From Eubacteriales bacterium (lineage in GTDB: Bacteria > Bacillota > Clostridia > Oscillospirales > CAG-272), in NCBI GenBank assembly GCA_045612185.1, contig JAZKYO010000100.1:13606-77605 (forward strand): a stretch of DNA of 64,000 nucleotides, written 5' to 3'. A program made the translations under genes and the position numbers. The notes under the pieces were generated by a model, which searched no databases, was not told where the DNA came from, and saw nothing but the letters and a program-made list of their open reading frames with translations. Below, piece after piece: positions 8,148 through 22,471 of this stretch (positions are counted from its first letter, which is position 1; every line of letters starts with the position of its first letter).

Positions 8148-8159
8148 CCGTCCTCCCAC

Positions 8160-8192
8160 CGCTAAAATATAACATAACGAGAGTTATGTTGT
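8160..8192 (+). repeat. Left inverted repeat L1 (recombination site)
   Basis: CGCTAAAATATAACATAACGAGAGTTATGTTGT matches the reverse complement of 8440-8472 at 31/33 positions. Confidence 0.9.
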
Positions 8193-8202
8193 TTGAGTAC
8201 GG

Positions 8203-8221
8203 AACATAACGAGAGTTATGT
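8203..8221 (+). repeat. Second left site L2 (direct copy of the L1 core)
   Basis: AACATAACGAGAGTTATGT, identical to the L1 core. Confidence 0.85.
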
Positions 8222-8268
8222 ATCAAAAATTCGAGATGCGTACCATAATTTAGCTTTTAGTGGTGTCT

Positions 8269-8297
8269 ATTTTACCATATATAAACAAAAAAATCAA
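8269..8297 (-). promoter_or_regulatory. Sigma-A promoter inside the invertible segment, pointing away from the fibre operon
   Basis: Minus strand TTGATT-17 bp-TAAAAT with extended -10 TGG. Confidence 0.75.
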
Positions 8298-8439
8298 TAG
8301 GTTCGGCAAAATTTCTTCACATTATTTATAAACGTATACCCTTTTTATAAATTTTTTGTAAAAAACAACGAAAGGGGTCTTTTTTTTCGCCATTTTTTAA
8401 AAAGAAAGTGGCTTTTTTTGATATTGACGTTTTAGGGTT

Positions 8440-8472
8440 ACAACATAACTCTCGTTATGTTGTTTTTTAGCG
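8440..8472 (-). repeat. Right inverted repeat R (recombination site)
   Basis: ACAACATAACTCTCGTTATGTTGTTTTTTAGCG; core spacer CTCTCG is the reverse complement of CGAGAG in L1/L2. Confidence 0.9.
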
Positions 8473-8544
8473 TAGGGCAACCTACTATATATTGGTCAAT
8501 TCTCAAAATTTGACGTTACTTGTTATTCCGAGGAGGTGAAGTAA

Positions 8545-9696
8545 TTGTCACAAAAGCCCAACAGCACAAAAGAACGCGTTTTGTTTATCGCCATCATAGT
8601 CGTAGCTGTACTGTTGATTTTAAGCATTTCACTTTTGATTGCCGTTAAAGTCAGAGATTCGTCTGACATTCCCGTGTCGTCCGACAACGTGATCGGTATT
8701 TCGGGAAAAGCTGACCTGCCCGTTGTCAGACTTGGAGACTTTTCTTTAAGCAATCAGTATTTCGATTCCTCTGCCACGGCTGTTTTTCTTACGTCCACAA
8801 ATGAAGATAAGCTGACTTTGTCTTGGTGGACGGGTTACGGCGCGAAAAAAAGTTTTACCGCGACAAATCTTATGCCGGGTGACGTTGTGTCGCAACAGTT
8901 TACCGTTACAGAAAAAAACAACCGCGCTCAAAGCATGCGTTTCGACATCAAAAACATTACCGAAAAAAGCAGCGTGTCTTCGGGAGCAAACGTTAAGCTT
9001 GCCGATATTCTCAACGTTACCGTTGCAGTCGGAGAAAAAGCCCTTTATAACGGACCTTTTTCTCAAGCTCAGGATATCCGTTGCGATCTTCTCCCCGGTG
9101 CGTCGCCTCAGTCGGTTACATACTCGATAACGGTAAGCATGCCCAAGTCGGCAGGTAACGAATACGCCTACAAATCACTTACCGCTGATTTTTCGTGGAC
9201 ACTTGAGGAGCTTCCCTATCCGTCGCCCGGAGAAAACTATTTCCCCGAATATGACGAAACGACGCATGTGCCCGATACCGAGCCGATAGCCCCCCCCGAT
9301 ACTGAGCCTATCGACCCGCCCGACACCGAGCCAATAGAGCCCCCCGATACCGAGCCTATCGATCCGCCCGATACCGAGCCAATTGAGCCCCCCGATACTG
9401 AGCCTATCGACCCGCCCGACACCGAGCCGATTGAGCCGCCGATAACAGTCGACGAACACGAGGACTGTTGCAGCTGTATCATCTGTCACGGACTTGCGGG
9501 GCTGTTCGGTATACACAACGAAACCTGCTTTACGTGTAATATAATCACAGCTATAAGCGGTTCGGAAGAATTTGTTTGTCTGTGTCCCATAGACTGTCTC
9601 TTTCTTCTCATTGTAGTAATTGCGCTTGCGGCAGTCGTTATCAGAATTCTCTGGGTAAAGAGAAAAGTTAAACAAATTACCAAAAATCAAGAATAA
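8545..9696 (+). CDS. TasA/CalY-like domain protein with acidic Pro-rich stalk, Cys-rich segment and C-terminal membrane anchor
   Basis: N-terminal hydrophobic segment, NLMPGD and AGNEY motifs shared with the neighbouring subunits, PDTEPI(D/E)P repeats, C-terminal TM plus basic tail; TTG start with GGAGG. Confidence 0.7.
   Translation: MSQKPNSTKERVLFIAIIVVAVLLILSISLLIAVKVRDSSDIPVSSDNVIGISGKADLPVVRLGDFSLSNQYFDSSATAVFLTSTNEDKLTLSWWTGYGAKKSFTATNLMPGDVVSQQFTVTEKNNRAQSMRFDIKNITEKSSVSSGANVKLADILNVTVAVGEKALYNGPFSQAQDIRCDLLPGASPQSVTYSITVSMPKSAGNEYAYKSLTADFSWTLEELPYPSPGENYFPEYDETTHVPDTEPIAPPDTEPIDPPDTEPIEPPDTEPIDPPDTEPIEPPDTEPIDPPDTEPIEPPITVDEHEDCCSCIICHGLAGLFGIHNETCFTCNIITAISGSEEFVCLCPIDCLFLLIVVIALAAVVIRILWVKRKVKQITKNQE
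9271..9438 (+). repeat. Coding tandem repeat, 7 x 24 bp (PDTEPI[A/D/E]P)
   Basis: Repeat units read directly in DNA and protein. Confidence 0.95.
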
Positions 9697-9708: not shown

Positions 9709-10257
9709 ATGTCAGTGAAAAATTTAAGCATATCGAAAAAGCTGGCAATCAGCGTAGTGCTTCTGACAGTACTGTCACTCTGCCTTTGCGTTACCACCTT
9801 TGCGTTAACCTATTCAATCGTCACGGTAGAAAACAACATATTTTCATCCGGATACGTCAGTATTAACCTCAACGACGGAAAGCCGATTATTGAAGAAGAC
9901 GAATTTATCTTTGAACCCGGTATGACCGTAAAGAAAGATTTCTTTATCAAAAACAACAGCTCGTGGAGCGTTTATTATAAACTTTACTTTGACAACGTTG
10001 ACGGAGAGCTTGCTGACAGCCTGCTCATATCCATATCTGATGGAGATAGAATCCTTTATTCGGGAACGGCGAAAACCCTTGACAAATCGGTGCTCGCCGC
10101 CGATGACGAGCTTGCTATAGGTGAAAAACGCGAGCTTACGGTAACCTTCCATTTCCCAAACAACTTGGGAGACAAATTGCAAAACCAAGAATTGACCTTT
10201 GACCTCTGCGCCGACGCGGTGCAAACCAAGAATAATACTGAAAAATTATTTAATTAG
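9709..10257 (+). CDS. Small TasA/CalY-like SipW-substrate protein
   Basis: Signal peptide ending TTFA; ENNIFSSG, FEPG, YKLYF and DAVQTKNN motifs typical of SipW-cluster proteins. Confidence 0.7.
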   Translation: MSVKNLSISKKLAISVVLLTVLSLCLCVTTFALTYSIVTVENNIFSSGYVSINLNDGKPIIEEDEFIFEPGMTVKKDFFIKNNSSWSVYYKLYFDNVDGELADSLLISISDGDRILYSGTAKTLDKSVLAADDELAIGEKRELTVTFHFPNNLGDKLQNQELTFDLCADAVQTKNNTEKLFN

Positions 10258-10265
10258 GAGTATTT

Positions 10266-10988
10266 ATGACAAAGGAAAACAACAAAAAAAGCGTTTGGAG
10301 TATCATAAAGACGGTTTTTGTATGGCTTATCGTAGCCATTACGGTGCTTATTATGATATTCACCATTATCTCGGTCACAACATTTGACCAGAACGACAGA
10401 AATCTGTTCGGATTTAAGTTCTTCATCGTACAAACAGACTCAATGGCAGCAACCGATTTTGATGCGGGTGACGTTATCATTTCAAAAAACGTTGACGTTA
10501 CAAGCCTTAAAGAAGGCGACATCATTACCTTTATCTCTCAAGACCCCACCAACTACGGCGAAACCGTAACCCATAAAATCCGTGAGGTTACAAGAGATAC
10601 AGACGGCACAATAGCCTTCGTTACATACGGTACTACAACTAACGTAAACGACGAAACACTCGCTACTATCGTAGTAGGTAAATACATAGGCAAAATTCCC
10701 AATCTGGGCGCGTTTTTTCTCTTTCTTAAAACAACACCCGGTTATATTCTTTGCGTTCTTGTTCCTTTCCTTATTCTTATATTGTTTCAAGGAATTAACG
10801 TTATTGTTCTGTTCCGCAAATACAAAAAAGAACAGCTTGACGAAATGAACGCGGAAAAAGAAAAGCTTGAGCAAGAGCGTGCAGAAAGCCAGCGTATGAT
10901 GGCGGAGCTTATGGAGCTGAGAGCTCAACTTGCAAAACAGGAAGGCGGCAACACCGATAAACCCGAGGAGCAACCGCCCCAAGAATAA
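10266..10988 (+). CDS. sipW: Signal peptidase I, SipW/S26B (ER-type)
   Basis: Catalytic Ser in QTDSM, GDII, His in VTHKI, N- and C-terminal TM segments; located among SipW-class substrates. Confidence 0.85.
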   Translation: MTKENNKKSVWSIIKTVFVWLIVAITVLIMIFTIISVTTFDQNDRNLFGFKFFIVQTDSMAATDFDAGDVIISKNVDVTSLKEGDIITFISQDPTNYGETVTHKIREVTRDTDGTIAFVTYGTTTNVNDETLATIVVGKYIGKIPNLGAFFLFLKTTPGYILCVLVPFLILILFQGINVIVLFRKYKKEQLDEMNAEKEKLEQERAESQRMMAELMELRAQLAKQEGGNTDKPEEQPPQE

Positions 10989-11027
10989 TTAGTTGTATTG
11001 CGGAAAATCCGCTTTGCATAAAGTTAG
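10989..11027 (+). promoter_or_regulatory. Conserved leader stem-loop, copy 1 (also at 13500-13538 and 14324-14363)
   Basis: TGTA-TT-GCGGA-AAA-TCCGC-TT-TGCA hairpin upstream of the RBS of three subunit genes. Confidence 0.6.
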
Positions 11028-11055
11028 CCACACCACAATAAAGGAGGAAAAGACA

Positions 11056-13401
11056 ATGACTAACAAGAAGACAACCAAGCGCGCGTTGCTCCTTAGCGTT
11101 GTAGCACTTTTGCTTTGCTTCACAATGCTTATGGGTACAACTTACGCATGGTTCACAGACTCTGTTACGAGCACAGGAAACAAGATCGTAGCAGGAACAC
11201 TTGACGTCAAGCTTTTGATGTACAACGCAAACACAGGAGATTATGAGGACATCTCCACAACAACCGATCCCGTTATCGGTGCTGCTATCTTTGGCGAGGG
11301 CACAACAGCAAACGCTGACACCGCAGCTACCCTTTGGGAGCCCGGCAAGACTCAGACTGTATACCTTGCTATCGAGAACGCAGGCTCGCTTGATCTCAAG
11401 TATCAGGTAGCTCTTGAAGTTAAGAACGTTGAGAAGAATCTCACAGACGTTGTTAGCTACGCGATCTCTCCCGATGCAAAGCCCGACTCACAGCCCGTCA
11501 ACGGTTGGGTTGGTAACGGCATTCAGGTTGGCATGGGTATCAACCCCACAGCTTCTCAGAACGTAGCTCTTGCAGCAGGTAACACTCACTACTTCGCACT
11601 CTCCGTACATATGGACGAGGATGCAGGCAATGACTACATGAACGGCTCTATCGAGTTCGACATCAAGGTACTTGCTACTCAGCTTAATGCAGAAAATGAC
11701 AGCTTTGGTCCCGATTATGACGAGGATTCCACATATTATATAGAGTCCGAGTCGGTAGACACCACACAGGAAGTAACTAACAACATTATGTTTACATCTC
11801 ACAGCTCTAACAATTCGGTTAAGCTTGCTGTAAGTAAGGAAATACTCAATAATCTTCCTGCTGAAGTTGAATCCGTAGTTTTCTCTCACTCCGATCCTAA
11901 AGTTGACGAAGTAAACAAGATTATCTCTTACAATCACTTCGAGCTTGAGGATCAGAACGGCGCGGCTATCGACCTTACAAGCAACACTACTCCCATCGTC
12001 GTAACACTTCCCGCACAGGACTTCTTCCCTGCCGGCGAGTACGTTACAGTTAAGCACGACGGTGAAATTATAGGCGTAGGTCTTGTAAACGACGACACAA
12101 CTATCACCTATGAGGCAGTTCACTTCTGCGAGGTAGAGATTAGTGAAGCTGACGCGGCTTTCATTGCCGTTATCGCAAGCAAGCCCTATAACACTCTTCA
12201 GGATGCTATCAACGACGCAAAAGACGGCGACGTTATCAACCTTATGAGAGGCAGAGTGTCCGAAATCAGCGAAACTCTAAACGTTACGACAAACGCCAAC
12301 ATCAACGGTAACGGAAACGTTATCAAGAGAGCCGATGGTGCTGAAAATATAGTTATGTTTAGCGTAAACGACGGAAAGACACTTACTCTTTCCAACATCA
12401 CCCTTGACGGTGGCGCAGTTTGGACAGGTGAAATAAACCCCCACCTTCTTCGCGGAACTGAAAACAGCGGTAAAACAACAGGCGGTTATTTGATTTCTAC
12501 AGCCAAAGGCCATATCGTACTTGAAGAAGGTGCAATTCTTCAGAACAATGACGGTGCAAACGCAGTTTTCCCCGGAACTCGTACCGGTGGCACGCTCACA
12601 ATTAACGGCGGCGAGATTATCAACAATCATTCCGCTGCAGGTGCAATTTGGGGCGGTGGTGCTATCACTCTCAACTCCGGTAAAATAAACGGAAATCACG
12701 GCGGTATCGGCGGTGCTATCCGCGTAGTTACAAACATAGGCACAGTTCTTACTATGAACGGCGGTGAGATGAACCATAATATGTCTGATGCCGTCGGCGG
12801 CGCTATCTGGGCCGGTTCCAGCAGAAGCACCAACGTATACGTTCTCAACGGCGGTGAAATGGCTTACAACTATTCCGCATCAACAGGCGGTGCTATCTAC
12901 GCAGGCTACTACGAAACAGTTAAGATTGGCGGAGATTTCAAGATGCACGATAACAGCTGTTCGGCAAATATCGGCGCTGAAATCAGATTCCACGATCACG
13001 CAAGCCTTATTATGACGGGCGGTGAGGTTTCCAACGAGGCAGATAACGCATTCTACCTCAACAACAACTCCGCATCTATAACGGGCGGTAAGTACGTTGG
13101 TAACCTCGGTTACTCCGGCGGTCTTGGTCTTACCATCGGTGAGGCTGACATTGAAGGTGTTATCGCGTACGATCTTGCCACTAACCACAATACAGCAAAC
13201 CTTGCTACAAGCTTTAACAGCTTCAAGTTTACAGTTAACGAAAGCGCGGCTAACTTCGCACAGTTCAACTTCAAACCCGCCGCAGGTTACGTATACACCG
13301 AAGGCGACGAAGCTAAGCTTGTTTGCATGAACGAGGGTTACGAAACCTATTGGGATGCAGCGGCAGGAGTGTTCAAGCTTCAGACAGTTGCTGAAAACTA
13401 A
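11056..13401 (+). CDS. SipW-dependent TasA/CalY-type subunit with C-terminal beta-helix adhesin-like region
   Basis: SipW-class signal TTYAWFTDS, LWEPG, AGNDY, ATQ; GGAI-repeat beta-helix; AAGGAGG RBS places the start at 11056. Confidence 0.82.
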   Translation: MTNKKTTKRALLLSVVALLLCFTMLMGTTYAWFTDSVTSTGNKIVAGTLDVKLLMYNANTGDYEDISTTTDPVIGAAIFGEGTTANADTAATLWEPGKTQTVYLAIENAGSLDLKYQVALEVKNVEKNLTDVVSYAISPDAKPDSQPVNGWVGNGIQVGMGINPTASQNVALAAGNTHYFALSVHMDEDAGNDYMNGSIEFDIKVLATQLNAENDSFGPDYDEDSTYYIESESVDTTQEVTNNIMFTSHSSNNSVKLAVSKEILNNLPAEVESVVFSHSDPKVDEVNKIISYNHFELEDQNGAAIDLTSNTTPIVVTLPAQDFFPAGEYVTVKHDGEIIGVGLVNDDTTITYEAVHFCEVEISEADAAFIAVIASKPYNTLQDAINDAKDGDVINLMRGRVSEISETLNVTTNANINGNGNVIKRADGAENIVMFSVNDGKTLTLSNITLDGGAVWTGEINPHLLRGTENSGKTTGGYLISTAKGHIVLEEGAILQNNDGANAVFPGTRTGGTLTINGGEIINNHSAAGAIWGGGAITLNSGKINGNHGGIGGAIRVVTNIGTVLTMNGGEMNHNMSDAVGGAIWAGSSRSTNVYVLNGGEMAYNYSASTGGAIYAGYYETVKIGGDFKMHDNSCSANIGAEIRFHDHASLIMTGGEVSNEADNAFYLNNNSASITGGKYVGNLGYSGGLGLTIGEADIEGVIAYDLATNHNTANLATSFNSFKFTVNESAANFAQFNFKPAAGYVYTEGDEAKLVCMNEGYETYWDAAAGVFKLQTVAEN

Positions 13402-13417
13402 TTCATTTTAATATGTC

Positions 13418-13484
13418 CCCAAGCCCCCGGGGCTTGGGCGGCAATCAAAGGGCATAAGCAAGCTCTTATGCTTTTTGATTGCTG
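13418..13484 (+). repeat. Intergenic double stem-loop, copy A (copy B at 16078-16146; degenerate copy near 21506-21565)
   Basis: CCCAAGCCC...GGGCTTGGG then CGGCAATCAAAGGGCATAAG...CTTATGCTTTTTGATTGCTG. Confidence 0.8.
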
Positions 13485-13572
13485 AATGCAAATTACATCG
13501 TTGTACTGCGGAAAATCCGCCTTACATATAAGTTAGTCTACCAAAAAAATTAAAAACATAAGGAGGAAGAAA

Positions 13573-14274
13573 ATGACTAACACAATTTCAACCAAACGCA
13601 CACTTCTTTTTAGTGTAGTGGCTCTGTTCCTTTGCTTTGCTATGCTTCTCGGAACAACCTTTGCGTGGTTCACAGACTCTGTTACGAGCACAGGAAACAA
13701 GATCGTAGCAGGTAACCTCGATGTACAACTTTTGATGTACAACGCAAACACAGGAGATTATGAGGACATCTCCACAGCCACCGATCCCGTAATCGGAGCA
13801 GCTATCTTTGGCACAGGCGAAACAGCTAACGCTGATACTGCCGCTACCCTTTGGGAGCCCGGTAAGACTCAGACTGTTTACCTTGCTATCAAGAACAACG
13901 GTAACCTTGACCTTAAATATCAGGTTATTCTTGTGGTTGCTGACATTGTCAACAGCCTTACAGACGTTGTTAAGTACTCTATCACCCCCGACGCTACCCC
14001 CAACAATCCTGTAAGCCCTTGGAATACAGGTTTCACAGTTAATTCCGGTGCTAATATTGTCAGTGATCCCGCCGACGTTAGCCTTGAAAAGGACGCTATC
14101 CATTACTTTGCTCTCTCGGTTCATATGGACGAGACAGCCGGTAATGAGTACAAGAACGGTTCTATCACTTTTGATATCAACGTACTTGCTACTCAGCTCA
14201 ACTCCGAGCTTGACAGCTTTGATCCCGACTACGACAAGGACGCTGAAAACGTACTTGATACCACCACTCCCTAA
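13573..14274 (+). CDS. SipW-dependent TasA/CalY-type subunit, pilin domain only (likely major subunit)
   Basis: TTFAWFTDS signal motif, LWEPG, AGNEY, ATQ; 233 aa with no passenger domain. Confidence 0.82.
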   Translation: MTNTISTKRTLLFSVVALFLCFAMLLGTTFAWFTDSVTSTGNKIVAGNLDVQLLMYNANTGDYEDISTATDPVIGAAIFGTGETANADTAATLWEPGKTQTVYLAIKNNGNLDLKYQVILVVADIVNSLTDVVKYSITPDATPNNPVSPWNTGFTVNSGANIVSDPADVSLEKDAIHYFALSVHMDETAGNEYKNGSITFDINVLATQLNSELDSFDPDYDKDAENVLDTTTP

Positions 14275-14395
14275 GCAAGAAAAGTTTAGGGCTTAACTGC
14301 TCTACTCTTTTTTAACACTCTATTTAGTTGTATTGCGGGAAATCCGCTTTGCATAAGTTAGTCCATCAAAAATTTTATTTAAGGAGGAAAAGACA

Positions 14396-16063
14396 ATGAC
14401 TAACAAGAAGACAACCAAGCGCGCGTTGCTCCTTAGCGTTGTAGCACTTTTGCTTTGCTTCACAATGCTTATGGGTACAACCTACGCATGGTTCACAGAC
14501 TCTGTTACGAGCACTGGAAACAAGATCGTAGCAGGTGAGCTTGACGTTCAGCTTTTGATGCATGACGGCACAAACTATGTTGACATCTCCAACGTTAACG
14601 ATCCCATAATCGGTGCCGCTATCTTTGGCGAGGGCACAACAGCAAACGCTAACACCGCAGCTACCCTTTGGGAGCCCGGCAAGACCCAGACTGTATATCT
14701 TTCTATCAAGAATGCAGGCACACTTGACCTCAAGTACATGGTTGCTATCGAGGTTACCGATGTAACCAATAACCTTACAGAGGTTATGCAGTACGCTATC
14801 ACTCCCGATGCTAAACCCGACAACGGTCTCGTTACAGGTTGGGTTGCGGACGCAGGCAAGTACGTTGTTAAAGGCACTAACCCCACAGATGCTGTAAACG
14901 TTGTTCTTGGCAAGGGCGCTGAGCACTTCTTCGCTCTTTCCGTTCACATGGACGAGGATGCAGGCAATGACTACATGAACGGTTCTATCACATTCGACAT
15001 CAAGGTACTTGCTACTCAGCTTAACTCTGAGGAAGACAGCTTTGGTAAGGACTACGACAAGAATGCCGTATATCCTCAGGGTACAGCAGTTATCGCTGCC
15101 CAGACTATTACCGGAACAGCTGTTGCAGGCGAAACAGCAAACCTCACTAACGCAGACGGAACATTCACAGTAGAAGCAACTGCAGGTGCAACCGGTGAAG
15201 TTAAGGCTACCATTGCTCCCATAAGCGCAACAAATGAAGCTTTCACCGCTGCAGGTTCAACCGGCAAGAGCCTTGTTTCCTATGACGTTGAGGTTACAGG
15301 TCATGAAGACGGTACTCCCGTTACCTTCAGCTTCTTTGTAGGTGAAGATCTTGCAGATGTAGTAATCTTCCACAAGGGTGCTCCTATGACAGATGGCACA
15401 TACTCTTACTCTGCAAGCACAGGTTACGTAACAGTTACCACAAGTGACTTCTCCCCCTTTGAGGCAGCTTTCTACTATGCTGGCGATCTTCCCGTTGCAA
15501 AGGTTTCGTCCTTGACCGACATTCCCGAGGAACTTGAAGTTGGTTATCTCTTCGAAGCAACCGAAGAGATCCCCGAGCCCGAAGGCGAGAATGGCGAATT
15601 CACCGATGAGCAGATCGAAGCTTTCCTTGAAAAAGTTGCTCCCTACGGTCTCTGGCACGCTGACTTCGTTGTTTCCTTTGATAAGGACGTAGCTGAGGGC
15701 GCTGTTGTTCTCGGCGGTCAGTACGATGAATGGAGCGAGACCTGGGTATGCTTCAACACCTACAGAGACATCAAAGCAGGTGAGCGTCTCCGTTTGCTCG
15801 GTCAGGCTTATGCAGAATTGACTAACAACGAAAACAACAAAATCTACATGAATTACGCTGAGCTTTGCGGCTTTGTTCGTGAATTCAGCTGCGGCGTTGG
15901 TGCTAACGATGAAAGCGTAAGCGGTACAACTGTTACCGTCGAGCTTCGTCTTTACGAGACATATTCTGAGGAAGAGTGTCTTGAAAAGTTCGGTTATTCT
16001 TCTATAAACGAAGAAACAGGCAAATCTGTAGTAATCGCTACATACAACTACACATTCAAGTAA
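14396..16063 (+). CDS. SipW-dependent TasA/CalY-type subunit with C-terminal passenger domains
   Basis: TTYAWFTDS; N-terminal ~220 aa very similar to the 11056 gene, C-terminus unrelated. Confidence 0.82.
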   Translation: MTNKKTTKRALLLSVVALLLCFTMLMGTTYAWFTDSVTSTGNKIVAGELDVQLLMHDGTNYVDISNVNDPIIGAAIFGEGTTANANTAATLWEPGKTQTVYLSIKNAGTLDLKYMVAIEVTDVTNNLTEVMQYAITPDAKPDNGLVTGWVADAGKYVVKGTNPTDAVNVVLGKGAEHFFALSVHMDEDAGNDYMNGSITFDIKVLATQLNSEEDSFGKDYDKNAVYPQGTAVIAAQTITGTAVAGETANLTNADGTFTVEATAGATGEVKATIAPISATNEAFTAAGSTGKSLVSYDVEVTGHEDGTPVTFSFFVGEDLADVVIFHKGAPMTDGTYSYSASTGYVTVTTSDFSPFEAAFYYAGDLPVAKVSSLTDIPEELEVGYLFEATEEIPEPEGENGEFTDEQIEAFLEKVAPYGLWHADFVVSFDKDVAEGAVVLGGQYDEWSETWVCFNTYRDIKAGERLRLLGQAYAELTNNENNKIYMNYAELCGFVREFSCGVGANDESVSGTTVTVELRLYETYSEEECLEKFGYSSINEETGKSVVIATYNYTFK

Positions 16064-16174: not shown

Positions 16175-19100
16175 ATGAAAAACACACGCAAGTCATTGTT
16201 TTGCAGCATAATTGCTCTCTTGCTCTGCTTTTCCATGCTTCTCGGTACAACCTACGCTTGGTTTACCGACTCGGTAACCAGTGTAAACAACATTATCAAG
16301 GCAGGTAACCTTGATATCGCTATGTACTGGAACGAGGACCTTACGGGCAGCTGGAAAAACATTGAAAACGAAAACAAGCTTTTCGACTATGACAAATGGG
16401 AACCCGGCTACACCGAGGTAAGATACGTAAAAATCGTTAACGAAGGCAATCTTGCTTTCAGATACGCAATGAGCGTTCTTCCTTTGGGTGAGGTAGGAAT
16501 ACTTGCCAATGTAATCGACGTTTACTACGTTGAAAATCCCACAGCTCCCATAGGCGACAGAACACAGCTGACCGCTCCCGTTGGCACACTTGCTCAGGTT
16601 ATCGCGGGTGAGTTTGTCACAAGTGGAAAAATGGAGAACAAGGGCGACGAGCTTATCGTCGGTATCGCTCTCAAAATGCGCGAGGATGCGGGCAACGAGT
16701 ATCAGGGCAAGTCTGTTGGAGACGCTTTCTCCATTCAGATCGTAGCAACACAGCTTGCGCACGAAAACGACTCCTTTGACAATACGTATGACGAAAACGC
16801 AACCTTCCCCGATGCTCCCGTAAACGAGGGCGTAACGGCTCCCGTTGAAAACGAGAACGGATTGGCTAAGAACGACGTTGCGCTTAACGGCACGAACGCT
16901 TCCGCAACCGTTCCCGCAGGCACCAAGCTTGAGGATGGCGCGTCAAAGCTCACACTTACAGTTACCGAGCTTAACGAAAGCGGCGCAAATATCGCGCTGG
17001 GTGAAAACGATGAGACAAAGTCTCTCGACGTCCATATCGACGGCGTTGCGGCTACAAACGACAAGCCTATAGTTATATCTCTCGGAGCTATTGCTCCCAT
17101 AGGACAGAACAGCGGCAACTTCAAGCTCTATCACGTAGAAAACGGTCAGAGCAACCAAATGACTGCTGTTGCAAGCGTTGCGGAGCTTGTAGCTCACAAC
17201 CAATTCTACTATGACCCCGCAACGGGCGAAGTAACAGTTGCTATGGCAACTTTCTCCGAGGTCGCTCTCGTGGCTGACACCGTAAACGCTTGGGAAGGCG
17301 TAGTTGCGACCGCTTTCGCGCGCGGTACAGGTACTGAAGACGACCCCTACATTATCGCAAACGCTGACCAGTTCGTATATTTAGGCGATCTTATTTCCAA
17401 CTATAATGAGAATTATGGAGACAAATACTACAAGCTCGTTGCCGACATAAACCTCGGCGGTGAGGAAAACGCAAACGAGGGACACATTTTCTATCCCATA
17501 GGTTATCACAAGGTAGGCGGTGAAATCGCGCCTGCAGACCTTGATGACGCTCCCGTTTTCGATTATTTTGATGACGCGGGCGAGGATTATGCGGTTTCTC
17601 ACGTCAGCGCAATAGCTGATAATGGTACAACTTGGTACACCTACGGCGGTGCTTTTCAAGGCACTTTTGACGGAAACGGACACACCATTTCCAACATCTA
17701 TCAGAACACCTGGCAATTGAAGGGTAACTACAGCGGTAATTACTGGAACGCCGCAATGGGTCTGTTCGGCTACGTAAACGGCGGTACTGTAAAGAACCTT
17801 ACGGTTGACAACTTCTCTTCCGACGGCGAGTTTACCCCCACGGGCGTTATCGCGGCTTACGCGGTTAACTCCACCTTTGAAAATATTGCTATCACAAACT
17901 GCAATCCCCGCGTTTACAACACGGGTAACGGCGGTATCGTAGGTATCGGCGGTAATTCAAGTGACCCCGACACTTATGCGCTCACGTTCACCAATATCAC
18001 TATAGACAACACCAACAAGATTTCGGCTCTTTGGGGCTCTTGGGACGTTGCCTGCGGCGGTCTTGTAGGTATGTTCCGCGGTGCGGGTCAAGTATACATG
18101 ACCAACTGCCACGTTGCGGCGCAGATCGACGTTTTCAACGACGTTTGCGGTAACTATCAGTATTATTGGTACCGCTACTCGGGCATGATGATCGGTACAA
18201 ATAAGAACATGATTACCGACACAAACGGTTACACCGTTCCCGAAACAAGCAAGTTCCACGCCGAGAACTGCACGGTTCACTTTGGCGATTGGAACGACTA
18301 CTACTACTGCGAGCTTGTAGCCAACTCTCTCGCATCCTATACTCACGACCACCAGTTCAGCCGTTTGACACAGATTCAGAACGTTTCCGAAATTCAGGAC
18401 GCAAACGGCAATTGGATAACGACCGGCAACTACATTTTGATGAACGGCAAGACTCCTACAGAGACCTGCTACCACATAGTAAACCAAAACGGAACGCTTA
18501 CACAGCATCTTCACACCGACGCGGGTGAGGAGACAGTAAACGGTGAAACTGTTCTTAAGGAAAATAATCAGCGCGTTTACCTTCCCTTTAACCAGCTCTT
18601 CACGGGCTACGGCTGGGGCGTAAAGCACATTCCCGTATATAACGGCGAGGACTACGCGTTTGATGGAATTACCATTCTTGACCGCGAAGTGGCTGATTCT
18701 GTTAAGAAGTTTGAAACCAAGTTTACAGGTGACTTCCTCTACCGTATAGGTAATCAGAATACAGTTTCTCTCGGTTCACTCTTTAAGGAAATAGACAATG
18801 TCAAACCTTCTGTGACAGATTCCGGCGTTTGGGTAACTGTCGAAGCAATTGACGAAAACTCCAACGTCAGCGGTGTATTCACAAAGGATACCGATACTTG
18901 GACTAACGGCACACTCAAATTCAGCGGCACAGGCGTTGTAAAGGTAACTATTCAGGACTATAACTACTGCAAGCCTACCGTTCTCTACCTTGAAGTTGTT
19001 GATGCAACCAACTTGACTTCCGCAACCGGAACAATAACCGGCGGTACGTTCGTATTGCTTTGTGATGTTAATACTTCAACTTATGTAAACTATTGGGACT

Positions 19101-21499
19101 GCACACTTTACGGAAACGGTTTCACATACTCTCTTAACGGTGCGCCCACGGCATACAACTCCAAGCAGGGACACGGTATACTTATTACCAAAAACGCGAC
19201 CCTTGACAACCTTGTAATTGTCGGTGATGTATACAACTCCTACGGAGCTTATACAAATCAGGATTATTACAATTCCGCAGTTGACGTTGTAGGCGACACT
19301 GTAATTCAGAACTGCTATATCTCCGGTTGTTCTGCGCCTATATCCACCCGTGCAAATGCTACGATTACTAATACCACCTTGTACGGTGGAACAGTAGCTA
19401 ACTTGATTATCAAATCAGGCACCGTTACGTTGGAAGACGTAACTACAGCCAATTACGACGACGGCAGATCACTTGTAGGAATGGGTATTGTTATCCACTC
19501 CGAAGCGACAGAATCCGCAAAGCTTATTCTTAACGGAACGCTTACTCAGTACAACTTTATAAGCGAAAGCAAAGTTCCTACCGACACATACGCAAAAAAT
19601 TTGCATACCGCAATGTTTGGTAATTCCTGCAGTAAGTATCATTTTGGAACAAGTCCTAACCGTTACGTTAACGCCGGTATTATCTCTCTGACAGCTTTGT
19701 TTAACGAATATGACATCACGGACAACGCTAATACAGGATACGTAGGAAATGCTGTAACCGTAAGTGGAGTAAACGGCTACGTATATACACAGCCCAATAC
19801 AAGCGGCTCTGTAAACAACAACTGTCCCGAGTATAAGCCCACCACCCAAGGAGCGGTTTCGCCGAGCTATAGCTTTGACCACACTATAAATGAGGTGGCA
19901 AAAACCGATGGTAGCAATGACTATTGCTACGAGGAAAGCGGCACCGTATATATCTCAATGGACGAGGGCGATTCTTTCGATTGGAATACTTCCATTTTGA
20001 CAGTAACCAAGCTTGGCAACAAGCTCGATTATACGGTTACTATGAATGCCACCGACTATACGGGAAAAACTATTACCTTTAACACCGCCGGTGATTATAC
20101 GGTGACGTATACTTATACAGATGGATACAATAGCAAGCTTAATGAAAAAGGCGACGTTACAACTTACGAAATAACGTATACGAAAACCGTTGCAATCAAC
20201 GTATCTATTATCAAACCGACTACCAAGCACGCGGAGTTTACTTTTGGTAGCGCAGGAACAGCCTCCACTTCGACAACTGTTGGGAATAATACCTACATTA
20301 TGCCTAACGTTACCGCGACAAGCTCCACGGTTGGAAGCATAACGGTTAGTGGAACAACAATTTACTATCCTATTGTCAATGCGTATACGTCAGACGGCGC
20401 AACCGCACATTCTTCTTTGAATAGTTGGTATATGTGCTATCCTGTGTTCAAAAACGTTATTTCGATTACAGATTATGAAAGTGCAGGAACAGGAAACGCC
20501 GTCACATATGGCAGTTCTACCACGACTATGCCCAGCGGCTTGTCGTTGACAGCGTATTCTAATTATTTCTCGCAGACAACGGCTCCCAGTGGTGCGGTAA
20601 GCTTTACTTCGGGTGGTGCGGATATCGCTTTTAAGTATCAGGCAAGTAACAGCGCGTCAAGCACACCGACAACGCTGAGTAACGTTTTGATATATGCTTC
20701 TCCTACATTAAGCAACAACGCACGTAACGAGATGTATCTGTTGGTACAGTACAAATATCAGGACAATGCCGGCGCGACTTACTATTACTATGTGGGATAT
20801 CATATGCCACAGACAACGGTGAAAAACGTATGCGTAACCCCCGATACACCTGTAACACTCGCTGACGGAAGCCAAAAGCGCATCGACCAAGTGACATATG
20901 AAGATCAACTTCTGGTTTGGGATTTCTTCAACGGCGAATATACCGTTGTTCCTTCCGCTATCATTTTCGATCACGGATATGATAATCGCAGAGTTCTGAA
21001 CTTGAATTTTGAGAATGGTATCACAGTTAAAGTTATTACAAATCACGGATTTTATCATGCACAAAGCGATTCGTTCGTATTCATTGACGAGGAGAACGTT
21101 GAATCGTATATCGGTTCAGACTTTGTGAGAATGAGCGGAGACAGTTACGATACGGTTAAGCTTATTGGATATTCTGTAACAGAAGAATATACCGGCGCAT
21201 ATTCGATACAGACTGCGTTGCATAACAACTTTATGGTTGAAGGAATGTTCTCGATCACTGAGCCGGAATTTGACGGCTGGTTCGACTACTTCGTAATCGG
21301 TGAGGGAATGAAGTATGACGAGGAAAAAATGCAGGCTGATATTGAAAAGTACGGCTTATACACCTATGAGGAATTTGCCGAGTATGTAACTTATGAACAA
21401 TTCATCGCATTTAACGGACCGTACTTGAAGGTATTGGTAGGTAGAGGCGTTGTTACTTATGAGCAGATTCTCGCACTCATTGATGCCTACGTAAATTAA
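16175..21499 (+). CDS. Large SipW-dependent subunit/adhesin (1774 aa) with GLUG-like/beta-helix region and C-terminal Hint domain
   Basis: TTYAWFTDS, WEPG, GTGTEDDPYII, FQGTFDGNGHTISN; Hint motifs CVTPDTPVTLADG, ITNHGF and AYSIQTALHNNFMVEG. Confidence 0.82.
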   Translation: MKNTRKSLFCSIIALLLCFSMLLGTTYAWFTDSVTSVNNIIKAGNLDIAMYWNEDLTGSWKNIENENKLFDYDKWEPGYTEVRYVKIVNEGNLAFRYAMSVLPLGEVGILANVIDVYYVENPTAPIGDRTQLTAPVGTLAQVIAGEFVTSGKMENKGDELIVGIALKMREDAGNEYQGKSVGDAFSIQIVATQLAHENDSFDNTYDENATFPDAPVNEGVTAPVENENGLAKNDVALNGTNASATVPAGTKLEDGASKLTLTVTELNESGANIALGENDETKSLDVHIDGVAATNDKPIVISLGAIAPIGQNSGNFKLYHVENGQSNQMTAVASVAELVAHNQFYYDPATGEVTVAMATFSEVALVADTVNAWEGVVATAFARGTGTEDDPYIIANADQFVYLGDLISNYNENYGDKYYKLVADINLGGEENANEGHIFYPIGYHKVGGEIAPADLDDAPVFDYFDDAGEDYAVSHVSAIADNGTTWYTYGGAFQGTFDGNGHTISNIYQNTWQLKGNYSGNYWNAAMGLFGYVNGGTVKNLTVDNFSSDGEFTPTGVIAAYAVNSTFENIAITNCNPRVYNTGNGGIVGIGGNSSDPDTYALTFTNITIDNTNKISALWGSWDVACGGLVGMFRGAGQVYMTNCHVAAQIDVFNDVCGNYQYYWYRYSGMMIGTNKNMITDTNGYTVPETSKFHAENCTVHFGDWNDYYYCELVANSLASYTHDHQFSRLTQIQNVSEIQDANGNWITTGNYILMNGKTPTETCYHIVNQNGTLTQHLHTDAGEETVNGETVLKENNQRVYLPFNQLFTGYGWGVKHIPVYNGEDYAFDGITILDREVADSVKKFETKFTGDFLYRIGNQNTVSLGSLFKEIDNVKPSVTDSGVWVTVEAIDENSNVSGVFTKDTDTWTNGTLKFSGTGVVKVTIQDYNYCKPTVLYLEVVDATNLTSATGTITGGTFVLLCDVNTSTYVNYWDCTLYGNGFTYSLNGAPTAYNSKQGHGILITKNATLDNLVIVGDVYNSYGAYTNQDYYNSAVDVVGDTVIQNCYISGCSAPISTRANATITNTTLYGGTVANLIIKSGTVTLEDVTTANYDDGRSLVGMGIVIHSEATESAKLILNGTLTQYNFISESKVPTDTYAKNLHTAMFGNSCSKYHFGTSPNRYVNAGIISLTALFNEYDITDNANTGYVGNAVTVSGVNGYVYTQPNTSGSVNNNCPEYKPTTQGAVSPSYSFDHTINEVAKTDGSNDYCYEESGTVYISMDEGDSFDWNTSILTVTKLGNKLDYTVTMNATDYTGKTITFNTAGDYTVTYTYTDGYNSKLNEKGDVTTYEITYTKTVAINVSIIKPTTKHAEFTFGSAGTASTSTTVGNNTYIMPNVTATSSTVGSITVSGTTIYYPIVNAYTSDGATAHSSLNSWYMCYPVFKNVISITDYESAGTGNAVTYGSSTTTMPSGLSLTAYSNYFSQTTAPSGAVSFTSGGADIAFKYQASNSASSTPTTLSNVLIYASPTLSNNARNEMYLLVQYKYQDNAGATYYYYVGYHMPQTTVKNVCVTPDTPVTLADGSQKRIDQVTYEDQLLVWDFFNGEYTVVPSAIIFDHGYDNRRVLNLNFENGITVKVITNHGFYHAQSDSFVFIDEENVESYIGSDFVRMSGDSYDTVKLIGYSVTEEYTGAYSIQTALHNNFMVEGMFSITEPEFDGWFDYFVIGEGMKYDEEKMQADIEKYGLYTYEEFAEYVTYEQFIAFNGPYLKVLVGRGVVTYEQILALIDAYVN

Positions 21500-21611
21500 A
21501 AAAACTCCCCGCCGCCTTCAGGTGGGAAAATCAAAGGGTGCAAAAAGAGATTTGAACCTTTTGAACACTAAAAATATTAACTCATGTAGATACTCGAAAG
21601 GAGGAAACGCT

Positions 21612-22424
21612 TTGGAAAAACAGAATAAATTTGAAAAGCTTACTGACAAGGCGTTTTCTCGCTTGATAGTCACTTCGATGCTTGGAATATTTATTTCCAT
21701 CATATCGCTTTGCTCGGTAACGTGGGCGTGGTTCAGTCAGGATATTACTGTTCCGTCCAACACTATAAAGGCAGGTTATTACGAGGCTAACCTTTCGGTA
21801 GCTAACGTGACCTATTCAACGTCAGTAACCGCTGACAACAAAACCGTTACCGTGCAAAACGAGTCACCGATAGACGCTGACACCTCTGTTCAAGGCTTTT
21901 ACAGGTATATGTTTGACGGAAATTCAGTATACAAGGTTAACATTCCCTACACTGCCAACGGCAGCAACGGATACTGCAAAATCCATATAGAGGGCTTGAC
22001 TGCGCCGTTATTTGCAAACATTTCGTCAAACGACAGCGAGTTTGATTTCTTGATTAAGCTATCAAGCGCAGCTGAGGTTCGCTTTGAGCTTCGTTGGGGT
22101 ACACACAGCGGAGAAAACGCTGTTGCTGACGGTGAGTTGCTGGAAGTTACCATTCCGGGCGACCAAGCCGAGAAACCGGCTGAAGAGCCACAACCCGTAG
22201 AGACTGAGCCCGTTGAAACTCAGCCTGTCGAGACTGAGCCCGTCGAAACCGAGCCAGTTGAGACTCAGCCTGTTGAAACCGAGCCCGTTGAGACCGAGCC
22301 TGTTGAAACTCAGCCTGTCGAGACCGAGCCTGTTGAAACCGAGCCCGTCGAGACCGAGCCCGTCGAGACCGAGCCTGTTGAAATTAACAACGACGCTTCG
22401 GAAGCTTCAGAAACAAACGAATAA
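21612..22424 (+). CDS. SipW-class protein with acidic PVET(E/Q) repeat tail
   Basis: VTWAWFS signal motif, NTIKAG; AAAGGAGG RBS before TTG 21612. Confidence 0.75.
22194..22382 (+). repeat. Coding tandem repeat, ~12.6 x 15 bp ([10 protein letters not shown])
   Basis: Repeat units read directly. Confidence 0.95.
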
Positions 22425-22433
22425 TACAATGCA

Positions 22434-22471
22434 AAAGGCGAAGGAGATTTTTCCTTCGCCTTTACTTATTT
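22434..22471 (+). terminator. Terminator of the fibre operon
   Basis: AAAGGCGAAGGA-GATTTT-TCCTTCGCCTTT hairpin. Confidence 0.75.

What the first reader, a model, noticed from the sequence alone, without database searches (positions are those of the whole stretch)
20831..21499. Hedgehog-like Hint autoprocessing domain at the C-terminus of a pilin-adhesin
Seen: Cys1553 begins CVTPDTPVTLADGSQKRIDQV (block A), followed by ITNHGF (block B T/H) and AYSIQTALHNNFMVEGMFS (blocks F/G), about 141 aa in all. The terminal His-Asn is absent, and an ~80-aa acidic/aromatic tail follows. Established: Hint domains lacking the C-terminal Asn cannot splice but form an N-terminal thioester, which Hedgehog resolves with cholesterol recruited by the downstream region. 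Inference: the adhesin C-terminus is self-cleaved and may be ligated to a nucleophile (lipid, wall polymer, host or substrate molecule) chosen by the tail. That would be a covalent attachment or release mechanism on a TasA-type fibre.
Basis: partly seen in the sequence, partly recalled or inferred. Interest (0 to 1): 0.8.

Follow-up and report, generated by a model that had tools for sequence, protein, structure and literature searches.

The report
Self-cleaving Hint module with conserved tail
The last 222 residues of a large secreted fibre-locus protein form a Hedgehog/intein-type self-cleaving domain joined to a conserved small helical domain of unknown fold, a pairing found at the ends of thousands of secreted proteins of gut Clostridia and apparently undescribed.

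Summary
C1553 (nt 20831) starts a 143-residue Hint fold: AF2 pLDDT 92.5; VIA Z 18.0 to a Tetrahymena BIL domain, 17.3 to a C. thermocellum BIL and 16.5 to Hedgehog 1at0. A 79-residue acidic, aromatic helical tail follows and matches no solved fold (best Z 2.9).

Cys1 and the block-B His are invariant in 151 of 151 relatives. No column holds a terminal Asn, so splicing is excluded and only N-terminal thioester formation and cleavage remain possible.

Hint plus tail is one conserved unit:
- It hits 2882 cluster representatives.
- In 141 of the best 150 it sits within 15 residues of the C-terminus.
- Conservation starts exactly at the Cys, and the tail is more conserved than the Hint (57% against 48.5% pairwise identity).

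Carriers are secreted proteins of uncultured gut and rumen Clostridia. They are not only SipW/TasA-type; some have type IV pilin-like or ordinary Sec N-termini, and some carry dockerins.

What resolves the thioester is untested. The Hedgehog-like ligation idea is possible but unsupported: the block-B Thr and a second Cys are missing, and the tail shows no similarity to a sterol-recognition region. I rate it a new variant of a known kind (BIL/Hog-like).

The parts
16175..21499 (+). Carrier gene: 1774-aa secreted protein (P0001) made of signal peptide, a 1552-aa passenger, the Hint domain and the tail
   Evidence: ORF list and translation. No LPXTG motif and no TM-like segment after residue 60.
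16214..16312 (+). SipW-dependent-type signal peptide (residues 14-46, ...GTTYAWFTD...)
   Evidence: TIGR04088 scores 19.2 bits against a cutoff of 19. PF12389 N-terminal region, residues 6-94, scores 22.3 bits against a cutoff of 22.5.
20831..21259 (+). Hint (Hedgehog/intein) fold, residues C1553-T1695
   Evidence: AF2 pLDDT 92.5. Foldseek and VIA-align matches to BIL, inteins and Hedgehog with Z 16-18 over model residues 8-156. The family profile hits the BIL2 domain 6y75/6tmm at E~1e-3.
20831..20833 (+). Codon of Cys1553, the predicted nucleophile; the predicted scissile bond is V1552-C1553
   Evidence: Cys in 151 of 151 aligned modules. Pairwise identity rises from 11.5% before it to 48.5% after it.
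21044..21046 (+). Codon of His1624 (block B His, position 72 counted from Cys1)
   Evidence: His in 151 of 151. The residue three positions before it is I/V/L rather than Thr (I97 V42 L9 A3).
21227..21229 (+). Codon of Asn1685 in the block-F-like H-x-N motif
   Evidence: Asn in 149 of 151. Assigning it to block F is my reading of the motif, not a computed alignment.
21260..21496 (+). Conserved acidic/aromatic helical tail, residues 1696-1774 (about 10 residues of variable linker, then a five-helix domain)
   Evidence: Helices at model residues 174-231. Folded alone: pLDDT 86.6. Pairwise identity 56.9% for 1706-1770. No Pfam family. Best PDB Z 2.9.
10266..10988 (+). SipW-type signal peptidase I of the locus
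   Evidence: TIGR02228 scores 58.8 bits against a cutoff of 51.85. NF046067 SipW scores E 3e-21, below its cutoff.
9709..16063 (+). Other SipW-signal/TasA-like genes of the same operon: 9709-10257, 10993-13401, 13573-14274 and 14396-16063
   Evidence: PF12389 and/or TIGR04088 hits at their N-termini.
21522..22424 (+). Downstream gene with a ...TWAWFSQD... N-terminal motif and a PVETE-repeat tail; a terminator-like hairpin follows at 22434-22463
   Evidence: Translation and terminator scan. The signal motif was read by eye; no family model hit it.

Best explanation
The last 222 residues form a single-turnover autoprocessing module: a Hint domain (1553-1695) joined to an obligate small helical partner domain (about 1706-1774).

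After export, Cys1553 attacks the V1552-C1553 peptide bond (N-to-S acyl shift), helped by His1624. This gives a thioester that holds the 1552-residue passenger. There is no terminal Asn and no +1 nucleophile, so splicing and C-terminal cleavage cannot follow. The thioester can only be resolved by an incoming nucleophile, which separates the passenger from the Hint-tail piece.

Shown here: the fold, the invariant Cys and His, the lack of Asn, and the tight coupling and conservation of the tail.

Inferred: the cleavage itself, its extracellular site, and a functional role for the tail in the reaction. Whether the nucleophile is water (plain release) or a specific acceptor (ligation) is open.

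The module is a portable C-terminal cassette used by many kinds of secreted proteins in gut Clostridia. It is not a feature of TasA fibres as such.
For: Fold:
- AF2 pLDDT 92.5, pTM 0.86.
- VIA Z 18.0 (6tmm BIL2, rmsd 2.8, 148 aligned), 17.3 (2lwy C. thermocellum BIL, rmsd 1.8, 134 aligned) and 16.5 (1at0 Hedgehog, rmsd 2.1, 138 aligned).
- Foldseek E~1e-8 to inteins, BIL and Hedgehog.
- The family profile hits BIL2 at E~1e-3.

Catalytic residues: C1553 and H1624 are in 151 of 151 members and N1685 in 149 of 151. The -1 residue is small in most (G59 S38 T15 of 151).

Module boundary: pairwise identity is 11.5% in the 10 residues before the Cys, 48.5% in the Hint, 22.9% in the linker and 56.9% in the tail.

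Coupling of Hint and tail:
- All of the best 150 of 2882 hits cover both parts.
- 141 of those 150 end within 15 residues of the module.
- A whole-model pTM of 0.86 implies a fixed Hint-tail arrangement.
- Complex test of Hint against tail: weak support, score 0.47 against a best of 3 controls of 0.00. The mark was reached by 58 of 80 solved complexes and 2 of 110 mismatched pairs. At 0.60 or under, only 7 of those 80 reached it, and so did both mismatches that passed. The runs agree in at least 97% of contacts, and the partner pLDDT is at least 79.

Extracellular setting: all complete carriers I read have signal-type N-termini. None of the 150 has LPxTG in its last 400 aa.

Against: - No experiment supports cleavage; it is inferred from homology.
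- The block-B Thr (B:7, TXXH) is absent family-wide (I/V/L in 148 of 151).
- The position I read as block F:4 is S/T/G rather than Asp (S81 T32 G30 of 151; alignment by eye).
- This particular copy departs from the >=85% consensus at four positions: L1559P, D1614N, T1616I and N1632D. Two of these residues occur in this sequence alone among 151. It could therefore be slower or inactive.
- Sequence models score below their curated cutoffs.
- The Hint-tail docking test gave only weak support.
Confidence: 0.65

Rival explanations
1. Hedgehog-type ligation, a more specific version of the best explanation. The tail binds a defined acceptor (envelope lipid, peptidoglycan or wall-polymer amine or hydroxyl, another fibre subunit, or a host or substrate molecule) and presents it to the thioester. 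The passenger's new C-terminus then becomes covalently attached while Hint-tail leaves. This would be a self-contained analogue of sortase or exosortase-type C-terminal sorting.
For: - The layout matches the Hog domain: a Hint followed by a ~80-aa conserved region.
- The tail is never separated from the Hint in the best 150 hits and is more conserved than the Hint. Plain hydrolysis would not obviously require this.
- The -1 residue is small.
- Carriers lack other C-terminal anchors (0 of 150 with LPxTG).
- Hedgehog precedent: D46 activates cholesterol and the SRR binds it (PMC12054796, passages read).
Against: - No acceptor is known.
- The tail is an acidic, compact helical bundle (pI 4.05), which does not look like a membrane-lipid binder.
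- It has no similarity to any solved fold or Pfam family.
- There is no second Cys to match Hedgehog C143.
- The column at the linear position of Hedgehog D46/47 is mostly Asn (N89 D17 of 151).
- No accessory or acceptor gene is conserved within +/-10 kb.
- Some carriers already have their own attachment, such as dockerin or pilin N-termini.
Confidence: 0.3
2. The Hint-tail is a catalytically silent structural or binding module, for example a wall-binding or adhesive end domain, and the protein stays in one piece.
For: - The block-B Thr and a block-F Asp are missing family-wide.
- This copy has four rare substitutions at conserved positions.
- 9 of the best 150 carriers continue 74-516 residues beyond the tail, so the module can be internal.
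Against: Cys1 and the block-B His are kept in 151 of 151 members at 43-72% identity. Sequence conservation begins exactly at the Cys. A purely structural domain has no reason to keep either feature.
Confidence: 0.12
3. A polymorphic-toxin arrangement: a pre-toxin Hint releases the tail as a small toxin or effector.
For: Hint autopeptidases located just before C-terminal toxin domains are known in polymorphic toxins (PMC3482391, passages read). Several loci carry two module genes in tandem (7 of 82).
Against: - The tail is the most conserved part rather than a variable cassette.
- It is a 75-aa acidic helical bundle with no toxin family hit.
- Without a terminal Asn, nothing would detach it from the Hint.
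- No conserved immunity-like neighbour was found.
Confidence: 0.03
4. A true intein or type A BIL that splices or cleaves at its C-terminus, joining the tail to the passenger.
For: The closest structural matches include inteins and an A-type BIL.
Against: There is no terminal His-Asn and no conserved Asn in columns 1690-1701. The module is terminal rather than inserted in a conserved host protein, and passengers are unrelated to each other (11.5% identity).
Confidence: 0.02

Closest known systems
Bacterial intein-like (BIL) domains, especially type B (Amitai 2003 and Dassa 2004, as summarised in PMC4031507)
   Same: Both are Hint folds in secreted, variable bacterial surface proteins, with an N-terminal Cys and no +1 nucleophile. 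Type B lacks block G and only cleaves. The best structural matches are BIL domains (6tmm Z 18.0, 2lwy Z 17.3), and the only significant PDB profile hit is BIL2.
   Different: This module always carries a conserved ~75-aa helical domain after the Hint and sits at the extreme C-terminus. The block-B Thr is replaced by Ile/Val/Leu. No BIL model exists in the libraries used, so membership of type B could not be tested by profile.
Hedgehog Hog domain (Hint plus sterol/adduct recognition region)
   Same: Both are C-terminal Hint domains beginning with Cys, with His at position 72 from the Cys, no Asn, and a conserved ~80-residue region that follows and is needed for the transfer step in Hedgehog. 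1at0 matches at Z 16.5, rmsd 2.1 over 138 residues.
   Different: The organisms here are bacteria. There is no TXXH Thr, no second Cys (Hedgehog C143) and no demonstrable D46 equivalent. The tail is acidic and globular, with no detectable similarity to the SRR. No adduct is known.
Pre-toxin Hint domains of polymorphic toxins (PMC3482391)
   Same: Both are Hint autopeptidases near the C-terminus of large secreted multidomain bacterial proteins.
   Different: There the downstream domain is a hypervariable toxin with an adjacent immunity gene. Here it is a conserved non-toxin-like tail with no conserved neighbour.
C-terminal sorting signals processed by transpeptidases (LPXTG/sortase, PEP-CTERM/exosortase, T9SS CTD/PorU); recalled, not tested
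   Same: In both, a removable C-terminal element on many unrelated secreted proteins is replaced through an acyl intermediate at the new C-terminus.
   Different: Those systems need a separate enzyme. Here the catalyst would be built into the substrate. This is an analogy only.

Membership tests
Hint (Hedgehog/intein) superfamily | Disk-shaped all-beta Hint fold | tested here: met
   VIA Z 13.5-18.0 to 24 intein, BIL or Hedgehog chains over model residues 8-156. Foldseek gives 63 matches at E<=0.001.
Hint (Hedgehog/intein) superfamily | N-terminal Cys/Ser nucleophile (A:1) and block B His (B:10) | tested here: met
   C1553 and H1624 are each present in 151 of 151 aligned modules.
Hint (Hedgehog/intein) superfamily | Curated sequence model above threshold (Pfam PF01079 or related) | tested here: not met
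   12.6-14.8 bits against a cutoff of 29.7. Only 6 of 120 listed carriers have a precomputed PF01079 hit. The family is a divergent branch.
Class 1 intein | C-terminal Asn (usually His-Asn) and a +1 Cys/Ser/Thr extein nucleophile | tested here: not met
   Intein ends align to about T1695. Columns 1694/1695 are L/I/T/V and T/D/S, with Asn in 2 of 151.
Class 1 intein | Thr B:7 of TXXH and Asp F:4 | tested here: not met
   The residue at His-3 is I97 V42 L9 A3. The position I read as F:4 is S81 T32 G30 C4. The F:4 placement is by eye.
Class 1 intein | Inserted within a conserved host protein | tested here: not met
   The module is at the extreme C-terminus in 141 of 150 hits. The upstream sequences are unrelated (11.5% identity).
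BIL type A | C-terminal His-Asn like inteins | tested here: not met
   as for the class 1 intein row. The definition comes from PMC4031507.
BIL type B | Hint with an N-terminal nucleophile, no similarity to intein block G, found in secreted variable proteins | tested here: met
   The definition comes from PMC4031507.
BIL type B | Type B-specific sequence motifs | not testable with these tools
   No BIL-B profile or sequence was available in the libraries searched.
Hedgehog Hog domain | Active site C1, D46, T69/H72 (TXXH) and C143 | tested here: not met
   C1 and H72 are present. The Thr is absent. The only Cys in residues 1553-1774 is C1553. Residue 47 is D in this protein but N89/D17 across the family. 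The feature list comes from PMC12054796.
Hedgehog Hog domain | Sterol/adduct recognition region after the Hint that recruits the nucleophile | tested here: inconclusive
   A conserved region of similar size and position exists. It has no detectable sequence or fold similarity to anything, and its function is untested.
Polymorphic toxin with pre-toxin Hint | Variable C-terminal toxin domain plus an adjacent immunity gene | tested here: not met
   Tail pairwise identity is 56.9%. No neighbour family is shared beyond TasA-like and SipW genes.
TasA/camelysin-type SipW substrate (the carrier, not the module) | SipW-dependent-type signal peptide and a SipW peptidase in the locus | tested here: met
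   TIGR04088 scores 19.2 against a cutoff of 19. The SipW-type peptidase is at 10266-10985.
TasA/camelysin-type SipW substrate (the carrier, not the module) | TasA/camelysin domain (PF12389) above threshold | tested here: inconclusive
   22.3 bits against a cutoff of 22.5, covering only profile positions 4-77 of 196. There is no PDB sequence match for residues 1-242.

The most novel reading that the evidence does not exclude
This is a prokaryotic counterpart of the Hedgehog Hog domain: a portable, enzyme-free C-terminal ligation cassette. The Hint makes a thioester, and the conserved helical tail recruits a specific acceptor. Large secreted adhesins, fibre subunits and dockerin proteins of gut Clostridia would thereby be covalently coupled by their new C-terminus to an envelope component, another subunit or a target surface. 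That would be a self-contained alternative to sortase-type sorting and a possible clue to the bacterial origin of Hog domains.
Probability: 0.25. Interest if true: 0.85.

Novelty: new variant of a known kind. Interest (0 to 1): 0.6.

Why it matters
Hint domains in bacterial secreted proteins are known (BIL domains and pre-toxin Hints). A Hint that is always paired with one conserved downstream domain, placed at the very C-terminus of thousands of unrelated secreted proteins, is the Hedgehog layout and not the usual bacterial one.

I found no description of it. Four of the six full-text searches bore on this and returned nothing on this module. Pfam and NCBIfam have no model for the tail. Named database members are called 'hypothetical protein' or 'Ig-like domain-containing protein'.

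If the tail directs the thioester to an acceptor, this would be a new protein-attachment chemistry in abundant gut and rumen Clostridia. It would also be a ready-made self-cleaving or self-ligating tag. It bears on the open question of where Hog domains came from; Bürglin 2008 (PMC2362128) states that the origin is unknown and that new bacterial Hint domains may help.

If the thioester is only hydrolysed, the module is still a widespread, unannotated self-processing cassette that changes how these large 'hypothetical' surface proteins should be read.

Tried and rejected
- Single-sequence PDB search of the module found no Hint. It returned only 12 limonene epoxide hydrolase rows at E 0.007-0.7, which I treat as chance.
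- PDB sequence search of carrier residues 1-242 gave 0 matches.
- I thought by eye that the domains following the tail in 9 exceptional carriers resembled the downstream ORF 21522-22424. phmmer and blastp of 8 of the 9 extensions (P0144 left out: only 74 residues follow its module) found no similarity to it or to any locus protein, so I dropped the idea. Those extensions have no Pfam family in the 4 carriers scanned.
- Stand-alone tail proteins: 47 short proteins (43-139 aa) match the tail. Most come from contigs under 5 kb. Of the 8 I read, at least 5 begin inside the last Hint strands or the linker. I read them as fragments or miscalled starts, not as free tails.
- Conserved partner gene: clustering 847 rough gene calls from 79 loci found only further SipW-signal/TasA-like genes (33 of 79 loci) and a SipW-like cluster (7 loci). 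Every other cluster was in 6 loci or fewer. Gene calls were greedy longest-ORF calls, and upstream flanks are short because the carriers are long, so a distant partner is not excluded.
- ESM Atlas on the tail alone gave a top score of 0.90 with 85 of 256 shared features. Rows included Hint-containing fragments, and the method is not calibrated for parts of proteins. I treat this as a lead only.
Additional files 16-17 of PMC2362128 list a bacterial C-terminal Hint-like group from Proteobacteria and Myxococcota. I could not see them and so could not compare that group with this family.
- I did not obtain residue-level structural alignments or model coordinates. The placements of D46, F:4 and the terminal Asn rest on aligned ranges and on motif reading.
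Full report
**The observation.** The + strand ORF 16175..21499 encodes a 1774-residue protein. C1553 to S1693 is 141 residues. The remaining 81 residues are acidic and aromatic: residues 1696-1774 have pI 4.05, aromaticity 0.215, 16 D+E and 5 K+R.

**Is it a Hint domain?** Family models alone do not settle it.
- Pfam Hint PF01079 scores 12.6-14.8 bits against a cutoff of 29.7.
- NCBIfam intein_Nterm scores 20 bits against 24.5, starting exactly at residue 1553.
- A single-sequence PDB search finds no Hint.

Structure prediction does settle it. An AF2 model of window:20801-21496, built with 25 short relatives, has mean pLDDT 92.5 and pTM 0.86. It shows a beta-rich domain followed by five helices.
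- Foldseek against the PDB gives 63 matches at E<=0.001. The listed rows (ranks 1-50) are all inteins, a BIL domain or Hedgehog 1at0.
- VIA-align against 48,161 representative chains gives 30 at Z>=8, all of the Hint superfamily. The best are 6tmm (Tetrahymena BIL2, Z 18.0, rmsd 2.8, 148 aligned), 2lwy (C. thermocellum BIL, Z 17.3, rmsd 1.8, 134 aligned) and 1at0 (Hedgehog, Z 16.5, rmsd 2.1, 138 aligned). They cover model residues 8-156.
- A profile of the family hits the BIL2 chains at E~1e-3 over the N-terminal half.

**The catalytic inventory.** I aligned the query with the best 150 database representatives, 151 modules in all.
- C1553 and H1624 are invariant. H1624 is residue 72 counted from the Cys.
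- N1685, in an H-x-N motif that I read as block F, is present in 149 of 151.
- The residue three positions before the His, which is Thr in TXXH, is I97 V42 L9 A3.
- The column I read as block F:4 is S81 T32 G30 C4, not Asp.
- Intein C-termini align to about model residue 153, which is T1695. Columns 1694/1695 are L/I/T/V and T102/D30/S10, with Asn in 2 of 151. No nearby column holds a conserved Asn.
- The module contains no Cys other than C1553, so there is no counterpart of Hedgehog C143.

Per the literature passages I read, Asn cyclisation and a +1 nucleophile are required for splicing, and type B BILs lack block G and only cleave (PMC4031507). The Hedgehog active site is C1, D46, T69, H72 and C143 (PMC12054796). 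This domain can therefore at most carry out the first step, thioester formation, followed by resolution through an external nucleophile.

**The tail.**
- In context it forms helices at model residues 174-231 with pLDDT around 90.
- Folded alone it keeps the same helices (pLDDT 86.6, pTM 0.72).
- It matches nothing. The best VIA Z is 2.9, with 0 of 48,161 chains at Z>=5. Foldseek finds no match at E<=0.001. Pfam gives nothing better than E 0.17.
- The whole-model pTM of 0.86 suggests it sits in a fixed position on the Hint.
- A two-chain test of Hint against tail gave weak support: score 0.47 against a best of 3 controls of 0.00. The mark was reached by 58 of 80 solved complexes and 2 of 110 mismatched pairs. 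At 0.60 or under, only 7 of the 80 reached it, and so did both mismatches that passed. The runs agree in at least 97% of contacts, and the partner pLDDT is at least 79.

**A conserved, portable module.** An exhaustive HMMER search of 1.84 billion cluster representatives with the 232-residue query found 2882 hits at E<=1e-3, 2046 at E<=1e-10 and 1134 at E<=1e-30.
- All of the best 150 (43-72% identity) cover both Hint and tail.
- In 141 of 150 the module ends within 15 residues of the protein's C-terminus. The other 9 continue for 74-516 residues.
- Carrier lengths run from 241 to 5822 residues.
- Mean pairwise identity is 11.5% in the ten residues before the Cys, 48.5% in the Hint, 22.9% in the ~10-residue linker and 56.9% in the tail.

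Homology thus begins exactly at the predicted scissile bond, and the tail is the best-conserved part. The -1 residue is usually small (G59 S38 T15 of 151; Val in this protein).

**Who carries it.**
- Among the 120 listed carriers, precomputed Pfam hits (my count from the table) are PF12389 camelysin/TasA in 17, PF07963 N_methyl pilin in 10, PF00404 dockerin in 7, PF09479 Listeria-Bacteroides repeat in 6 and PF01079 Hint in 6. The few names given are 'hypothetical protein' or 'Ig-like domain-containing protein'.
- In one-genome-per-species contigs, 325 loci encode a relative. The best 80 (79 distinct loci) are all MAGs, and those whose titles name a source are from ruminant gut or faeces. They are labelled Oscillospiraceae, Eubacteriales, Clostridia, Lachnospiraceae, Faecousia, Christensenellaceae and Acutalibacteraceae, plus single Acholeplasmatales, Bacilli and Alistipes records.
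- These loci hold 89 module-bearing ORFs, of which 24 are cut at the 5' end. Among the 65 complete ones, my patterns SipW-type, 2 type IV pilin-like and 42 other. By eye, L055 is also SipW-like, four more (L029, L030, L032, L036) are pilin-like, and most of the rest look like ordinary Sec signal peptides.
- Seven of 82 loci carry two module genes in tandem, and 9 of 82 hold a SipW homologue within the fetched flank.
- Clustering rough gene calls finds additional SipW-signal/TasA-like genes in 33 of 79 loci. No other family appears in more than 7 loci. No dedicated accessory gene is apparent.
- The window's own genome has one copy.
- The module was found in 4 of 41 close relatives, counting the window's genome. 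It was found in 14 of 399 scored genomes of the class, with up to three matches per genome in one genus. The distribution is patchy.

**The local context.** The carrier is the sixth gene of a same-strand cluster.
- A SipW-type signal peptidase lies at 10266-10985 (TIGR02228 above its cutoff).
- Proteins with SipW-type signals or PF12389 N-termini lie at 9709, 10993, 13573 and 14396.
- A downstream gene at 21522-22424 has a similar N-terminal motif read by eye.
- A terminator-like hairpin lies at 22434-22463.

The reading 'large accessory or tip subunit of a TasA-type fibre' is reasonable but inferred. PF12389 is 0.2 bits below its cutoff and covers only the N-terminal ~90 residues. The carrier has no LPXTG and no TM-like segment after the signal peptide.

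**Mechanism.** The best-supported reading is a single-turnover autoprocessing cassette. After export, Cys1553 forms a thioester with the carbonyl of V1552, assisted by His1624. Resolution of that thioester frees the passenger from the Hint-tail. I put 0.65 on Cys-dependent cleavage occurring in this family.

This copy has four departures from the >=85% consensus: L1559P, D1614N, T1616I and N1632D. Two of these residues are unique among the 151 sequences, so its own activity is less certain.

Whether water or a specific acceptor resolves the thioester cannot be decided here.
- For a specific acceptor: the strict coupling and high conservation of the tail, and the Hedgehog precedent.
- Against it: the lack of a D46-like Asp (N89 D17 at the corresponding linear position), the lack of C143, the acidic globular nature of the tail, and the absence of any candidate acceptor or accessory gene.

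I give the Hog-like ligation version about 0.25-0.3. A catalytically dead module gets 0.12, a toxin-release arrangement 0.03 and true splicing 0.02, each argued against by the data above.

**Comparison and novelty.** The module works like a type B BIL or a Hog domain. It meets the fold and Cys/His criteria of the Hint superfamily. It fails the intein and BIL-A criterion (terminal Asn) and fails three of the five Hedgehog active-site positions. I could not test it against BIL-B motifs because no model was available.

BIL domains in clostridial surface and cellulosomal proteins have been noted before (PMC4582956, passages read). C-terminal bacterial Hint-like groups were mentioned by Bürglin 2008 (PMC2362128, passages read; its supplementary alignments could not be seen).

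I found no description of this Hint-plus-tail module in six full-text searches. This shows only that the terms did not retrieve one. I therefore call it a new variant of a known kind, of moderate to high interest. The interest would rise sharply if an adduct were found.

Noticed in passing
window 7305-8545: A tyrosine recombinase gene lies at 7305-8147 (XerA/XerD-like, with weaker hits to DNA invertase models). It is followed at once by a 38-nt inverted repeat (89% complementary; arms 8155-8192 and 8440-8477) flanking 247 nt, just upstream of the first gene of the SipW/TasA-like cluster at 8545. This layout looks like an invertible promoter that could switch the whole fibre locus on and off.
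   Followed up: no
window 21522-22424: The downstream gene encodes a protein with a WAWFSQD signal-type motif, a ~130-aa beta-looking domain and a long [10 protein letters not shown] tandem repeat tail. It matches no family beyond low-complexity hits and has no similarity to the post-tail extensions of other carriers.
   Followed up: partly
P0079, P0085, P0089, P0128, P0129, P0133, P0145, P0152 (database relatives): In 8 of the best 150 carriers (a ninth, P0144, has only a 74-residue acidic stretch), the Hint-tail is internal. An acidic P/E-rich linker and repeated ~90-aa domains (motif ...GTATTGYAKITVDGD.YYT...) follow it. None of the 4 carriers scanned has a Pfam family there. After cleavage these domains would stay attached to the Hint-tail piece.
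   Followed up: partly
L013, L041, L043, L048, L054, L057, L071; G164, G245, G271: Some genomes carry two or three module-bearing genes side by side. The modules within one locus are strongly diverged from each other, for example E 1e-85 against 7e-27 to the query in L013.
   Followed up: no
window 16175-20830 (passenger); L067: A Cys-rich passenger segment (...WGSWDVACGGLVGMFRG...NDVCGNYQYYWYRYSGMMIGT...) recurs nearly unchanged at the start of the L067 carrier ORF. Part of the passenger is therefore also a shared domain with no family assignment.
   Followed up: no
L050, L065, L074: Single module-bearing contigs are labelled Acholeplasmatales, Alistipes (a 3.2-kb contig) and Bacilli. If the Acholeplasmatales record is correctly binned and the organism lacks a cell wall, a peptidoglycan acceptor would be unlikely there.
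   Followed up: no
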